A stretch of DNA of 64,000 nucleotides from Promethearchaeia archaeon (GCA_036478875.1 JAZGEW010000068.1:4-64003), one strand, 5' to 3'; positions 4,131 to 40,767 are shown, counted from the stretch's first letter. The notes: generated by a model from the letters alone, not told the origin. Made by a program: numbers and translations.

Positions 4131-4625
4131 TTACACACCTCCTTCGTATTCTGGCTTGCTAATCCACCGTTCATACTCGCCTTCAGGAACAAAGAAAAAA
4201 TCAGTCATTTTTCCCTCTCTTTCCTTCTGAAATACGGCTCTAACTCGTTGACCCTTTTTGACTTTAGAGGGAACTAAATTTTCTGAAAAAATACCTTGAT
4301 TAAATGCTGTATGAGTCCCATCTAGTTTAATGAAGGCAATTCCATAAGGTACCACCTGTATAAAAGCTGAAGTGGTATACCAAACAATGGTGCTAACTTG
4401 TATCGTTCCTGTTTGCTTTATTTCAACCCAATCGGTATCTTCATAACAATCAGAGCAATTTATTCTCGGTGGCATCCAGACTTTTCCGCATTTTTTACAT
4501 TTGGTTCCTAAAATCTTTTTATTATTCATAAGTTCTATGAAAAATTTGCTTTGACCGCCCATAGTATACTTGTAATTTATTCCAATTTTATCTCTTATTT
4601 GGTGGTCTTGAAACTCTCCGCTCAT
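4131..4625 (-). CDS. DUF35 family OB-fold / zinc-ribbon protein (thiolase-associated)
   Basis: 164 aa with the rubredoxin-like knuckles 'CKKCGKVWMPPRINCSDC' followed by an OB-fold-like region. It overlaps the thiolase stop by 4 nt. Confidence 0.75.
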   Translation of the reverse strand: MSGEFQDHQIRDKIGINYKYTMGGQSKFFIELMNNKKILGTKCKKCGKVWMPPRINCSDCYEDTDWVEIKQTGTIQVSTIVWYTTSAFIQVVPYGIAFIKLDGTHTAFNQGIFSENLVPSKVKKGQRVRAVFQKEREGKMTDFFFVPEGEYERWISKPEYEGGV

Positions 4626-5845
4626 TTTTTCAACCCTTCACCGTTTGCCATTACAATAATAGCTGCATATGCAGCTCCTGGCCCTCCAATTGAATGAGCT
4701 AGGGCTCGACCATTTTCAGTCGTTTTCACTTGATGTTTTCCAGCATCCCCTCTTAATTGCAGAGCCGCTTCACCTGTCGACATAATTCCCGTAGCGCCTA
4801 CAGCGTGACCACATCCAATCAATCCTCCTGATGGATTGCAAGGTAATTCACCATCCATCATTGGACCTCCATCTTCTATCCATTTACCTCCTTCTCCAAA
4901 AGGAACAAATCCTAATTCTTCGTATGATATTACTTCTTGTCCAGAAAATGCATCGTGTAATTCTGCAAGATCTATTTGCTCTTTTATCTTATTATAATCA
5001 AGCCCTGCCATTTTATAAGCAGCTTTAGCAGCGTAAATATTAGAATATAATCTAGAAATGCTTTCCCGATTACCGATAAAGCAATCGGCATTTGCAGCAC
5101 CAATCCCTTTAATCCAAATAGGGTTTTCGATTTTTAATTCCTTAACTTTTTGTTCACTGGCTAAAATCAACGCTGCTGATGCTTCCGAATATAAACAACA
5201 ATCTAAAAGTTTAAATGGATAACAAATAATTCGCGAATTAATTACATCTTCTACTGTTATTTTCATTGGTGATTGAGCCTTTGGATTTAACATTGCATTT
5301 CCATGATTTTTTACAGATACTAAAGCCATTTGTTCTTCTGTTGGATTACCATATTCTTCGTAATGGGCATTTACCATAGTCACATAAGAACTAGCAGCCA
5401 TCATTCCCATTGGGTATTCATAGGTCATGTCAACAGAATAAGCAATTGCGTTTAAAACCGCTGGGGTTGTTGTACCGGTTAGTTCATCGTAACAATCATT
5501 ACATTTTTCTACGCCTATACAAAGGCTTAAGTCTGATAAGCCCGATGCTATTTCAGAATAGGCCATTCTAACAGTATATCCACCTGTAGCACCCCCGCTT
5601 GCTATCCTAGTCCCTGGTTTGTTATTAAGTCCGAGATAACTATTTATAAATATATCAGGCATGAATTGTCTTTCGAAAAGCTCGTTATAAATGCCATAAA
5701 CAGTTGATTCTATCTCATTATGAGTGATTCCAGCATCTTTAAGCGCTATATCTGCAGCATCGTAGGCCAATTCAAAATAAGTTTTATCTAAATACCTTGT
5801 TTTAAAGGGTGTAATTCCTACACCTATTATTGCTACTTTCCTCAA
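4622..5845 (-). CDS. thiolase (acetyl-CoA acetyltransferase / SCP-x-type thiolase family)
   Basis: 407 aa with a TTG start giving the typical N-terminus 'MRKVAIIGVG'. Thiolase-like 'GGATGG', 'CNPSGGL' and 'GHAVGATG' segments are present. Confidence 0.85.
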   Translation of the reverse strand: MRKVAIIGVGITPFKTRYLDKTYFELAYDAADIALKDAGITHNEIESTVYGIYNELFERQFMPDIFINSYLGLNNKPGTRIASGGATGGYTVRMAYSEIASGLSDLSLCIGVEKCNDCYDELTGTTTPAVLNAIAYSVDMTYEYPMGMMAASSYVTMVNAHYEEYGNPTEEQMALVSVKNHGNAMLNPKAQSPMKITVEDVINSRIICYPFKLLDCCLYSEASAALILASEQKVKELKIENPIWIKGIGAANADCFIGNRESISRLYSNIYAAKAAYKMAGLDYNKIKEQIDLAELHDAFSGQEVISYEELGFVPFGEGGKWIEDGGPMMDGELPCNPSGGLIGCGHAVGATGIMSTGEAALQLRGDAGKHQVKTTENGRALAHSIGGPGAAYAAIIVMANGEGLKK

Positions 5846-36026: not shown

Positions 36027-36521
36027 ATGGCGTCCTATCGATTAATTATTGGTATCATTGTTGGTATCATATTTAGTTTTTTTACGGTTTTTTTCTTTAA
36101 TATGACGGTTATCATAACCCAAATTGAATTGCACGCTGGTGGTAATGTATTAAAAATAGCTGCATTATTAGTTGGGGCTAATTTTGATTTTAATATGATT
36201 TCATTTATCATAGACCCCCTTCAATCCCCTTCAATCTTAGGATTTTTTGCGCCAGAGATATTAGCATGGATTTTCATCGGTTACATCACGGGGTCAATAG
36301 CAAAAGGTTTAAGACGAGGAACAATAGCGAGTTCATTAGTAGTTATTATAGTTTTATTGTTTTGGATAATACTAAGCATTATATCCGGTGTAGATTTAAT
36401 GGCTTTATTCCAAGGAACTCAATTAACTGAAACATTAGGGGGAATAATTAGTGCATTTATAGGAGTCTTAATAGGAGGAGTAGTTGGTGGGTTAGTAAGC
36501 GGCCCTTATGAAGAATTCTAA
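36027..36521 (+). CDS. small multi-pass membrane protein, unknown function
   Basis: 164 aa with about 4-5 TM helices and a Gly-rich last helix. Confidence 0.5.
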   Translation: MASYRLIIGIIVGIIFSFFTVFFFNMTVIITQIELHAGGNVLKIAALLVGANFDFNMISFIIDPLQSPSILGFFAPEILAWIFIGYITGSIAKGLRRGTIASSLVVIIVLLFWIILSIISGVDLMALFQGTQLTETLGGIISAFIGVLIGGVVGGLVSGPYEEF

Positions 36522-39439: not shown

Positions 39440-39832
39440 ATGAGAAAAATGGGTAAAAAATGGAGATTTGCTTACTGCAGTAATTGTGAGAAAGAAATTG
39501 ACAAACCAAAAAGAAAATTATTTGATAGTATGTATTATAATGTCTGGATTCTAGTGATTATAGCTTCATTAGGGCTTGGAATTATAGCTTTTCTGGTTTA
39601 TCACTATGTAATTATAAAGAAGAATCTTTGTCCAAATTGCCAGAATCAATTAAAGTTCTATAGCTCTCGAGACGAAATTCCAGAACCAAAAGCTGAAATC
39701 ACCCGAATTCTGCAAACTATCGAACAAGAAAAACAATTAAGAACCAATAGTGGAAATTGCCCATTTTGTCAAGAAGAAATAAGTAACCAAGACCCCATTT
39801 GCCCAAAATGCGGGGCTTCTCTTAAAGAATAA
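39440..39832 (+). CDS. LITAF-like split zinc-knuckle membrane protein with C-terminal zinc ribbon (paralog 1 of 3)
   Basis: 130 aa. Architecture: CSNC, ~17 aa, ~23-aa hydrophobic helix, CPNC, linker, then 'CPFC...CPKCG'. Confidence 0.6.
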   Translation: MRKMGKKWRFAYCSNCEKEIDKPKRKLFDSMYYNVWILVIIASLGLGIIAFLVYHYVIIKKNLCPNCQNQLKFYSSRDEIPEPKAEITRILQTIEQEKQLRTNSGNCPFCQEEISNQDPICPKCGASLKE

Positions 39833-39885
39833 AAATATATATGATTATTACTATTCATTATTTTAAAATTGGAAGTGAAAAAAAA

Positions 39886-40263
39886 ATGACAACTTTAAAC
39901 CCAACTGGATGGTGTCCACGGTGCCAGCAGAATGTATTATTAAAACGTGAAGAAATTGATACTTGTCTTGCAATAATACTATTAATTTTTACTGCAGGAA
40001 TTGGTTTAATAATATATCTTGCTGTTTATTATTCTCGCCCAGAGCAGAATTGTATACACTGTGGTTATAAAATCACAGCTCTTCAAACTCAGAGTCCTTA
40101 TACATCTCAACCTCAAATTCAGCAATCTTCATATCCTACACCAGCTAATATATCTGAAGAGGTAACAGGTGTTAAGCCTAATTTTTGTGCACTATGTGGA
40201 GAAAAATTAGACATGGGAATAAAATTTTGCCCGAATTGTGGGAGCCAAATTACAGAAAATTAA
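39886..40263 (+). CDS. LITAF-like split zinc-knuckle membrane protein with C-terminal zinc ribbon (paralog 2 of 3)
   Basis: 'WCPRCQQNV...TCLAIILLIFTAGIGLIIYLAVYY...NCIHCG' followed by 'FCALCGEKL...FCPNCG'. I prefer the ATG at 39886 over the track start at 39841, because the earlier codons add only a non-conserved leader. Confidence 0.6.
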   Translation: MTTLNPTGWCPRCQQNVLLKREEIDTCLAIILLIFTAGIGLIIYLAVYYSRPEQNCIHCGYKITALQTQSPYTSQPQIQQSSYPTPANISEEVTGVKPNFCALCGEKLDMGIKFCPNCGSQITEN

Positions 40264-40398
40264 TTTCTTTTTATATTCTTTTTATATTTTAGAAACGTTT
40301 TTACTTCTTAAATTTAAAAATTGGACTCCAAATTTTTTTAATTCAATTAAGATCTCCTATAAATTAAATAATAAAAAGCAATTTGGAGTGATAGAAAA

Positions 40399-40767
40399 AT
40401 GTATTGTCCAAAATGTAATAAAAATGTATATACTAAAAAGAATGATTTTAATATTGGTCTAGCCATATTTTTAGCTATATTTACTGGTGGTATTGGCTTA
40501 TTAATTTATGTTGCTGTTTATTTAGATAGGGAACATAAACCTCGTTGTATCCATTGTGAATCAATCTGTTATAAACAAATGGAAATTAATCAACCAGTTT
40601 CAAATTATCAGGTGATTACTACCTCTAATCAAGGGCAAAGTCAAGAATTCATCTTAGAATCACATAAAAGTAAAGGAAATTCAAGGTTTTGTCATAATTG
40701 TGGATCTGAGCTAGATCTAAGTGAAAATGCTAAATTCTGTGCACTTTGTGGGAACTCAACACAATAA
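40399..40767 (+). CDS. LITAF-like split zinc-knuckle membrane protein with C-terminal zinc ribbon (paralog 3 of 3)
   Basis: 'YCPKCNKNVYTKKNDFNIGLAIFLAIFTGGIGLLIYVAVYL...RCIHC' followed by 'FCHNCGSEL...FCALCGN'. Confidence 0.6.
   Translation: MYCPKCNKNVYTKKNDFNIGLAIFLAIFTGGIGLLIYVAVYLDREHKPRCIHCESICYKQMEINQPVSNYQVITTSNQGQSQEFILESHKSKGNSRFCHNCGSELDLSENAKFCALCGNSTQ

What the first reader, a model, noticed from the sequence alone, without database searches (positions are those of the whole stretch)
39440..40767. Three tandem paralogs with a LITAF/SIMPLE-like split zinc-knuckle membrane domain plus a second zinc ribbon
Each ~120-130-aa protein has CxxC, then 10-17 residues, then a ~23-residue hydrophobic segment, then 6-8 residues, then CxxC. 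Two copies read C-I-H-C at the second knuckle. This is the defining layout of the eukaryotic LITAF domain, a zinc ribbon interrupted by a membrane-embedded hydrophobic hairpin with (H)xCxxC as the second knuckle. Local similarity is visible, for example 'CPKCNKNVYTKKNDFNIG' compared with the LITAF-type 'CPxCxxxVxTxVxxxxG'. A low-complexity linker and a C-terminal 'FCxxCG...FCPxCG' ribbon follow. The LITAF domain is mainly eukaryotic and tied to endosomal membranes. A triplicated version in an archaeon that may be Asgard-like would bear on the origin of eukaryotic membrane-trafficking components.
Basis: inference. Interest (0 to 1): 0.6.

Follow-up and report, generated by a model that had tools for sequence, protein, structure and literature searches.

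The report
Lokiarchaeal tandem LITAF-like membrane zinc proteins
Three neighbouring small genes of a Loki-type Asgard archaeon each encode a zinc finger split by a short greasy hairpin, the same layout as the human LITAF membrane anchor, plus a second zinc finger; the family is real and undescribed, but it is confined to one archaeal family, so it says little about how eukaryotic trafficking arose.

Summary

- **Genes:** Three same-strand genes, A (39440-39832), B (39886-40263) and C (40399-40767), encode CxxC, a 24-25-residue hydrophobic segment, CxxC, a disordered linker and a 4-Cys ribbon.
- **Pfam match:** All three match PF10601 (zf-LITAF-like) almost end to end but below its 23.8-bit cut-off (18.3, 23.0 and 13.8 bits). 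Reversed sequences give no match. A fourth paralog, D, on another contig scores 27.2 bits, which is above the cut-off.
- **Predicted fold:** AlphaFold2 (pLDDT 87) gives two short helices broken at a conserved central G-x-G. Both flanks are positively charged. This fits a membrane-dipping hairpin and not a membrane-spanning helix.
- **Conservation:** The array sits at one syntenic site and is under purifying selection (dN/dS about 0.2).
- **Distribution:** It is present in 68 of 68 genomes of its own family, 1 of 7 of the sister family and 0 of 225 other Asgard genomes.
- **Differences from LITAF:** There are no ESCRT or ubiquitin neighbours and no PPxY or PSAP motifs. The LITAF histidine is missing or displaced.
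- **Link to animal LITAF:** It is weak (hhalign probability 47%).

This scan had already reported the same array on other genomes. I found no paper describing it.

The parts
39440..39832 (+). Gene A (130 aa): LITAF-like split zinc ribbon, linker and C-terminal zinc ribbon. It is the most divergent paralog (23% identical to B).
   Evidence: ORF. PF10601 18.3 bits over profile positions 7-69 of 70; DZR 28.5 bits. Orthologs found in 20 of 31 loci checked, dN/dS 0.21.
39470..39661 (+). A: LITAF-like domain (residues 11-74): CSNC, hydrophobic hairpin with a central S-L-G-L-G, CPNC.
39755..39823 (+). A: C-terminal 4-Cys zinc ribbon (CPFC...CPKC).
   Evidence: DZR, DZR_2 and Zn_Ribbon_1 matches at residues 106-129
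39871..39878 (+). Shine-Dalgarno-like GGAAGTGA, 7 nt upstream of the ATG at 39886. It supports the 125-aa form of B.
   Evidence: ortholog lengths 125-127 aa
39886..40263 (+). Gene B (125 aa; an upstream in-frame ATG at 39841 would give 140 aa): LITAF-like domain, Q/S/T/P-rich linker and zinc ribbon.
   Evidence: ORF. PF10601 23.0 bits over positions 8-67 of 70; Zn_Ribbon_1 28.6 bits. 195 homologs. dN/dS 0.16.
39907..40077 (+). B: LITAF-like domain (residues 8-64). Predicted beta strands, helix 26-35, break at T-A-G, helix 39-50, then the second knuckle CIHC.
   Evidence: AlphaFold2 pLDDT 85-92 in the full-length model and mean 87.2 in the domain-only model
40078..40176 (+). B: disordered low-complexity linker (residues 65-97).
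   Evidence: pLDDT below 50 for residues 69-97; variable length and indels among orthologs
40177..40251 (+). B: C-terminal 4-Cys zinc ribbon (FCALCG...FCPNCG).
   Evidence: Zn_Ribbon_1 at residues 100-121, 28.6 bits, above the cut-off
40264..40398 (+). B-C spacer: a T-rich run directly after the B stop (looks like an archaeal oligo-T terminator), TATA-like boxes, and the Shine-Dalgarno-like GGAGTGA at 40385-40391.
   Evidence: read directly from the sequence; inference only, no transcript data
40399..40767 (+). Gene C (122 aa): LITAF-like domain starting at residue 1, linker and zinc ribbon.
   Evidence: ORF. PF10601 13.8 bits for the whole protein and 17.4 bits for the domain alone, over positions 6-64 of 70. 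dN/dS 0.21.
40399..40563 (+). C: LITAF-like domain (residues 1-55): CPKC, hairpin with a central T-G-G-I-G, CIHC.
40678..40758 (+). C: C-terminal 4-Cys zinc ribbon (FCHNCG...FCALCG).
   Evidence: Zn_Ribbon_1 and DZR matches at residues 92-120, below the cut-off

Best explanation
A, B and C, together with an unlinked paralog D, belong to a vertically inherited family specific to one Lokiarchaeal family. They are small proteins that sit on the cytoplasmic face of the membrane.

**Proposed mechanism**
1. The N-terminal ~58 residues form a LITAF-like (PF10601-type) zinc ribbon. Its two CxxC knuckles are separated by a 24-25-residue hydrophobic helix-turn-helix.
2. The hairpin turns at a conserved central G-x-G and dips into the cytoplasmic leaflet without crossing the membrane. 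That brings the four cysteines together to hold one zinc ion and pins the protein to the inner face of the membrane.
3. A disordered Q/S/T/P-rich linker then presents a second, soluble 4-Cys zinc ribbon to the cytoplasm. I infer that this ribbon binds a partner, either a protein or a nucleic acid, so the proteins act as membrane tethers or adaptors.
4. The tandem paralogs probably work together and may associate through their hairpins.

**Shown here:** the genes, their conservation, purifying selection, the profile similarity to PF10601 and the distribution.

**Predicted only:** the hairpin fold and the location of both flanks in the cytoplasm.

**Inferred:** zinc binding, the adaptor role and hetero-association.

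The family works like a LITAF anchor and falls in the broad PF10601 superfamily. It is most likely not the direct ancestor of eukaryotic LITAF.
For: **Profile similarity to PF10601**
- A, B and C match PF10601 nearly end to end. The match remains with the domain alone and vanishes for reversed sequences.
- 16 of 20 orthologs match, best E 4.8e-6.
- Paralog D scores 27.2 bits against a cut-off of 23.8. D-type genes reach 32 bits in sister genomes.
- 54 of 144 representative relatives match PF10601 at E<=0.001, best 1.4e-9. It is the only Pfam family that consistently covers the N-terminal half.

**Link between paralogs and to animal LITAF**
- The A/B/C profile against the D profile gives hhalign 99.3%.
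- The D profile against tetrapod LITAF aligns co-linearly over 61 columns, P=2e-4, against P=0.23 for the reversed control.
- The MAFFT alignment with LITAF domains is co-linear.

**Fold and topology**
- AlphaFold2 gives H26-35, a break, then H39-50 at pLDDT 85-92. The domain-only model has pLDDT 87.2 and the same break.
- G-x-G is central in 107 of 120 domains, leaving arms of 13 and 10-11 residues. The flanks carry 2.6 and 2.4 K/R on average.
- One of the few full-length Foldseek matches is the LITAF-domain protein of Singapore grouper iridovirus, TM 0.47.

**Conservation and distribution**
- Synteny M28 peptidase, Tmk, array, PDH/SDH holds in about 46 of 50 loci. Arrays of 2-4 copies are seen.
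- dN/dS is 0.16-0.21.
- The family is present in 68/68 genomes of its own family.
Against: - A, B and C are themselves below Pfam's gathering score.
- HMMs built from tetrapod LITAF alone give only 5-17 bits.
- hhalign of the A/B/C profile against tetrapod LITAF aligns a single knuckle only. The D alignment has 47% probability.
- Neither Foldseek search gives a significant match.
- I could not read model coordinates, so the distance between the four cysteines was not measured.
- Zinc binding, membrane association and topology are untested.
- I do not know whether Pfam's seed alignment already includes prokaryotic sequences. If it does, the above-cut-off scores would be inflated.
- Nothing indicates what the C-terminal ribbon binds.
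Confidence: 0.65

Rival explanations
1. Convergence. The split-ribbon and hairpin layout arose independently in this archaeal family, for example by insertion of a hydrophobic hairpin into an ordinary zinc ribbon. The PF10601 scores would then reflect a shared pattern (CPxC, hydrophobic stretch, CPxC) and not common descent with eukaryotic LITAF.
For: - The link to real animal LITAF is weak: at most 17 bits, and hhalign 47-65% with a partial alignment in one case.
- The best 150 relatives of the Asgard profile are all small prokaryote-style proteins.
- The LITAF His two residues before the second knuckle is missing or displaced.
- The domain order is reversed relative to LITAF, and there is no PPxY or PSAP motif.
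- The distribution is narrow.
Against: - Reversed sequences keep the same composition and the same CxxC-hydrophobic-CxxC pattern yet score nothing.
- The matches are co-linear over nearly the whole 70-position profile.
- D-type genes and many relatives pass Pfam's curated cut-off.
Confidence: 0.25
2. Ordinary bitopic membrane proteins. The hydrophobic segment would be one membrane-spanning helix, with the N-terminal knuckle in the cytoplasm and the second knuckle and C-terminal ribbon outside. Any zinc sites would form between subunits.
For: A 24-25-residue hydrophobic stretch is long enough for a single span. No experimental topology is available.
Against: - AlphaFold2 breaks the segment in the middle at high confidence in two independent runs.
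- A central G-x-G is conserved in 107 of 120 domains.
- Both flanks are rich in K/R, and 99% of domains have at least one K/R on the C-flank.
- Eight invariant cysteines outside the cell of an anaerobe, with no signal for export of the C-terminal half, would be unusual. This last point rests on general knowledge.
Confidence: 0.07
3. Vertical eukaryotic signature protein. The family would descend from an Asgard-ancestral LITAF anchor that eukaryotes inherited, with loss in nearly all other Asgard lineages.
For: The fold and profile resemble LITAF. The host is an Asgard archaeon. PF10601 was not found over its cut-off in 402 genomes of two other phyla, nor in 14 model genomes.
Against: - 0 of 225 genomes in 28 other Asgard families carry the family, and only 1 of 7 in the sister family.
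- The carrier lineage is labelled Loki-type, not Heimdall/Hod-type.
- No ESCRT or ubiquitin genes lie nearby.
- The nearest relatives are prokaryote-style proteins.
Confidence: 0.08

Closest known systems
Eukaryotic LITAF/SIMPLE and CDIP1 (LITAF domain; Pfam PF10601 zf-LITAF-like). Topology and zinc binding were shown by Ho et al. 2016, PMC5142333.
   Same: - A CxxC knuckle and beta strands, a ~25-residue hydrophobic segment with a glycine-centred turn, and a second CxxC knuckle, with co-linear spacing.
- A predicted hairpin that does not cross the membrane, matching the monotopic model of PMC5142333.
- CPxC in the first knuckle, and CPNC in the second knuckle of A and D.
   Different: - The domain is N-terminal here and C-terminal in LITAF.
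- There is no proline-rich region and no PPxY or P(S/T)AP motif.
- A second zinc ribbon is added at the C-terminus.
- The His two residues before the second knuckle is absent (A, D) or moved inside the knuckle (B, C: C-I-H-C).
- The hydrophobic core is not cysteine-rich.
- The window's copies score below Pfam's cut-off.
- There is no link to endosomes or ESCRT.
Prokaryotic and phage LITAF-like split zinc-ribbon mini-proteins. They are unstudied and are seen here as P0257, P0243, P0221 and L081, and in earlier scan notes.
   Same: The same CxxC, hydrophobic hairpin, CxxC module. They are retrieved by the Asgard profile at E<=2e-7, and many are recognised by PF10601.
   Different: - Most are domain-only proteins of 55-100 aa or have other fusions.
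- They are sporadic: PF10601 reached E<=0.001 in only 2 of 201 genomes, none over the cut-off, in a Clostridia-type phylum.
- The Lokiarchaeal array is a fixed, syntenic, multi-copy feature carrying a C-terminal ribbon.
Generic double zinc ribbon / Zn_Ribbon_1 domains (Pfam PF12773, PF13240)
   Same: The C-terminal 25 residues of A, B and C match these families. A and B score above the cut-off.
   Different: These families describe only the soluble C-terminal ribbon and say nothing about the membrane-anchored N-terminal half.

Membership tests
LITAF domain (Pfam PF10601 zf-LITAF-like) | Profile score at or above Pfam's gathering cut-off (23.8 bits) | tested here: not met
   Window genes: A 18.3, B 23.0 and C 13.8 bits, all nearly full-length on the profile. 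The feature is met by paralog D of the same genome (27.2 bits), by 57 of 301 Asgard genomes, and by some B orthologs (best E 4.8e-6).
LITAF domain (Pfam PF10601 zf-LITAF-like) | N-terminal CxxC knuckle followed by beta strands | tested here: met
   CSNC, CPRC and CPKC; invariant in 120 domains; strands predicted at residues 7-10 and 15-20.
LITAF domain (Pfam PF10601 zf-LITAF-like) | Hydrophobic segment of about 22-30 residues between the knuckles | tested here: met
   24-25 residues in 114 of 120 domains, compared with 27-30 in the LITAF sequences measured the same way.
LITAF domain (Pfam PF10601 zf-LITAF-like) | Second knuckle of the form H-x-C-P-x-C | tested here: not met
   The CxxC is present and invariant. 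However, the His two residues before it is absent in A (NLCPNC) and D (NTCPNC), and in B and C the His lies inside the knuckle (C-I-H-C).
LITAF domain (Pfam PF10601 zf-LITAF-like) | The hydrophobic segment inserts as a hairpin, so that both knuckles lie on the cytosolic face (monotopic) | tested here: inconclusive
   The prediction agrees: helix-break-helix at pLDDT 85-94, a central G-x-G and K/R on both flanks. No coordinates were available and no experiment was done.
LITAF domain (Pfam PF10601 zf-LITAF-like) | One zinc ion bound by the four cysteines | not testable with these tools
   Needs metal analysis of purified protein. Only the invariance of the four cysteines is shown.
LITAF/SIMPLE protein (endosomal adaptor) | N-terminal proline-rich region with PPxY and P(S/T)AP motifs that recruit WW-domain ligases and TSG101 | tested here: not met
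   No such region or motif appears in A, B or C (sequences). The linkers are Q/S/T-rich and lie C-terminal to the domain.
Asgard eukaryotic signature protein (ESP) | Broad presence across Asgard lineages, or presence in the lineage closest to eukaryotes | tested here: not met
   68/68 genomes in the own family, 1/7 in the sister family and 0/225 in 28 other Asgard families sampled, at E<=1e-5.
Double zinc ribbon / Zn_Ribbon_1 (PF12773, PF13240) | Profile score above the cut-off over the C-terminal 4-Cys module | tested here: met
   A: DZR 28.5 bits against 27.3. B: Zn_Ribbon_1 28.6 against 25 and DZR 28.1 against 27.3. C is below the cut-off at 21.6.

The most novel reading that the evidence does not exclude
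The Lokiarchaeal proteins are true evolutionary relatives of the eukaryotic LITAF domain and share its zinc-clamped monotopic membrane anchor. The anchor would then either predate eukaryotes in Asgard archaea and survive in only one lineage, or have moved between an early eukaryote or virus and this lineage. This would give the first prokaryotic model for how a LITAF-type anchor inserts into a membrane.
Probability: 0.2. Interest if true: 0.7.

Novelty: new variant of a known kind. Interest (0 to 1): 0.42.

Why it matters
Monotopic hairpin anchors are rare and poorly understood. [quoted passage not shown] No experimental structure of the intact domain was found in the PDB copy searched here.

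A small archaeal version that is highly conserved and predicted confidently could serve as a tractable model for how such an anchor folds and inserts.

For eukaryogenesis the result is mainly a caution. A LITAF-like domain in an Asgard genome is not evidence of inherited trafficking machinery. Here it is confined to one Loki-type family, it lacks the adaptor motifs, and it has housekeeping neighbours.

Tried and rejected
1. **hhalign of the A/B/C profile against tetrapod LITAF.** It aligned only one knuckle over 13 columns. The template was too narrow (Neff 1.9), so the result does not decide anything.
2. **Broadening the eukaryotic LITAF set.** I used the last two homolog searches for this. 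Both lists were filled with tetrapod orthologs plus one rotifer, so I could build neither a diverse eukaryotic profile nor a meaningful tree. I did not attempt a phylogeny on 58 columns with that sampling.
3. **Foldseek of the full-length model.** It was dominated by the floppy linker and was uninformative. The domain-only model gave no significant hit in BFVD or PDB, and the PDB sequence search found no relative.
4. **Names for non-Asgard relatives.** Almost none carry a name, so their taxonomy stays unknown.
5. **Sigma-70 promoter and intrinsic terminator scan.** It found no more than chance, and it is not appropriate for an archaeon.
7. **Mobile-element or recent-acquisition idea.** Rejected, because the flanks are syntenic in about 46 of 50 loci.
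8. **Pattern-only artefact idea.** Weakened by the reversed-sequence controls.

Full report
**1.

Window 39440-40767 carries three same-strand ORFs:
- A: 39440-39832, 130 aa.
- B: 39886-40263, 125 aa. An in-frame ATG at 39841 would give 140 aa, but orthologs are 125-127 aa and GGAAGTGA lies 7 nt before 39886.
- C: 40399-40767, 122 aa.

They are paralogs, 23-29% identical to A in the three-way alignment, and all eight cysteines are invariant. Each has CxxC, a spacer of 12-18 residues, a 24-25-residue hydrophobic segment, 4-7 further residues and a second CxxC. A low-complexity linker and a 4-Cys ribbon follow.

**2. Similarity to the LITAF profile**

- Against Pfam, all three match PF10601 (zf-LITAF-like) over almost the whole 70-position model but below the 23.8-bit cut-off: A 18.3, B 23.0 and C 13.8 bits.
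- The C-terminal ribbons match DZR/Zn_Ribbon_1, above the cut-off for A and B.
- Reversed sequences keep the composition and the CxxC-hydrophobic-CxxC pattern, yet give no PF10601 match at E<=10. The N-terminal halves alone still match end to end.
- 16 of 20 orthologs match PF10601, best E 4.8e-6.
- The same genome encodes a fourth paralog, D, on contig C110. It is 88 aa and consists of the domain only. It scores 27.2 bits, above the cut-off.
- D-type genes in sister genomes reach 32 bits.
- A/B/C and D are one family: hhalign 99.3%, E 2e-20.

**3. How strong is the link to real eukaryotic LITAF?**

- An HMM built from these scores the Asgard A/B/C domains at a median of 5.4 bits (maximum 12.8). 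Reversed decoys score a median of -0.6 (maximum 4.7). The reciprocal test behaves the same way.
- D-type sequences reach 17.3 bits, against at most 3.0 for reversed ones.
- hhalign of the D profile against tetrapod LITAF gives a co-linear 61-column alignment covering both knuckles and the hairpin. P is 2e-4 and the probability 47%. The reversed control gives P=0.23.
- The A/B/C profile aligned only one knuckle.

The signal is therefore directional and co-linear but modest. The stronger evidence is Pfam's own, more diverse model. I could not broaden the eukaryotic set, because the second search again listed tetrapods.

**4. Fold and topology (predicted only)**

- AlphaFold2 on B with 117 homologs gives beta 7-10, beta 15-20, helix 26-35, a break at T-A-G, helix 39-50 and short beta elements at the second knuckle. 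pLDDT is 85-92 in this part. The linker (69-97) is disordered.
- The domain alone, modelled with a 120-sequence alignment, has pLDDT 87.2 and the same break.
- Across 120 domains a G-x-G sits in the centre of the hydrophobic segment in 107 cases, leaving arms of 13 and 10-11 residues. Each arm is too short to span a bilayer.
- Both flanks are positively charged, with a mean of 2.6 and 2.4 K/R. 99% of domains have at least one K/R on the C-flank. This fits both flanks being cytoplasmic.
- This is the monotopic model shown experimentally for LITAF (PMC5142333).
- Foldseek found nothing significant. Among 12 BFVD matches, one of the full-length ones is the 'LITAF domain-containing protein' of Singapore grouper iridovirus (TM 0.47, E about 1). 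PDB holds no relative.
- I could not read coordinates, so the proximity of the four cysteines is not measured.

**5. Conservation, selection and distribution**

- B has 195 homologs, all labelled as Asgard MAGs.
- About 50 genomic loci carry arrays of 2-4 such genes.
- The arrays lie between the same neighbours in about 46 of 50 loci: M28 peptidase and thymidylate kinase on one side, prephenate and shikimate dehydrogenases and flavin reductase on the other. The array is therefore a stable chromosomal feature and not mobile DNA.
- dN/dS against the window genes is 0.21 (A), 0.16 (B) and 0.21 (C).
- With the Asgard domain profile (A4), the family is present in 68/68 genomes of the window's own GTDB family, 1/7 of the sister family in the same order, and 0/225 genomes of 28 other Asgard families, at E<=1e-5.
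- PF10601 gives the same picture: 61/68 in the own family and only weak partial hits elsewhere.
- Most MAG labels read Promethearchaeota or Promethearchaeia, NCBI's name for the Loki group. Some submitters' labels differ.
- Outside Asgard, PF10601 was over its cut-off in 0/201 genomes of a Clostridia-type phylum and 0/201 of a Bathyarchaeota-type phylum. A4 gave only hydrophobic-only fragments in 3/201 genomes of a Chloroflexota-type phylum.
- An exhaustive profile search of 1.84 billion representatives found 545 clusters at E<=0.001. The best 150 are all small prokaryote-style proteins, none of them LITAF-like eukaryotic proteins. 54 of 144 of them are recognised by PF10601.

**6. Interpretation**

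The proteins most likely are cytoplasm-facing membrane tethers. A zinc-clamped hairpin anchor holds them on the membrane, followed by a flexible linker and a soluble zinc ribbon that binds an unknown partner.

- They work like a LITAF anchor and fall in the broad PF10601 superfamily.
- They are not LITAF orthologs. The domain order is reversed, there is no PPxY or PSAP region, the characteristic His is missing or displaced, and no ESCRT or ubiquitin genes are nearby.
- The narrow distribution argues against vertical inheritance into eukaryotes.
- Convergence remains a serious rival (about 0.25).

**7. Novelty**

- No paper in the library mentions LITAF together with Asgard.
- PF10601 appears in two unrelated papers.
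- The LITAF structural paper describes the domain as found throughout eukaryotes.
- A search for 'LITAF-like' with 'prokaryot' found nothing relevant.
- This scan has already reported the same tandem array on other genomes (e1-3560499, e1-3087290, e1-3954465) and LITAF-like mini-proteins in bacteria and phages.
- My added results are the family-level restriction within Asgard, the above-cut-off paralog D, the reversed-sequence controls, the positive-inside analysis and the selection estimates.

**8. Limits**

- There were no model coordinates and no diverse eukaryotic profile.
- The taxonomy of the non-Asgard relatives is unknown.

Noticed in passing
G000 contig C110:18126-18305 (-), i.e. L076 1420-1686 (-): A fourth LITAF-like paralog, D (88 aa, domain only, second knuckle CPNC), scores 27.2 bits on PF10601, above the cut-off. 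A convergent neighbour (L076 1167-1433, +) encodes an 88-aa lysine-rich zinc-ribbon protein with a weak IBR (half-RING) match (E 1.2e-3, below the cut-off).
   Followed up: partly
P0200, P0220, P0208 and P0258 (representative hits): Relatives with other architectures. P0200 (200 aa) and P0220 (147 aa) each have two LITAF-like domains in one protein. P0208 has a zinc ribbon first and the LITAF-like domain last, which is the eukaryote-like order. P0258 has a LITAF-like domain followed by several double zinc ribbons.
   Followed up: no
L081 1489-1686 (+) and 1686-2057 (+): A bacterial 65-aa LITAF-like protein from a genome of a Clostridia-type phylum (PF10601 22.8 bits, second knuckle preceded by D-H-Y-W-V). 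Its stop overlaps the start of a 123-aa polytopic membrane protein. Earlier scan notes describe this pairing as a LITAF-like gene plus a DUF2085 gene.
   Followed up: no
window 40264-40290: A T-rich run (TTTCTTTTTATATTCTTTTTATATTTT) lies directly after the stop of B, and TATA-like boxes precede C. This suggests that B and C may be separate transcription units, despite the tandem arrangement.
   Followed up: no
window 36027-36521 (+): A 164-aa ORF between ribosomal protein S2 and an HD-domain gene has no Pfam match at E<=1e-5.
   Followed up: no
L032, L034, L035, L038 and L040 (about 4418-4792 in each): Some genera carry a fourth copy in the array. It is a B-like duplicate (about 124 aa, second knuckle C-I-N-C) whose start lies 3-4 nt after the stop of B, so array size varies from 2 to 4.
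   Followed up: partly
P0242: A 619-aa highly repetitive protein (HTCRHSQQYPT repeats) appears among the profile hits. The match is probably spurious and driven by low complexity.
   Followed up: no
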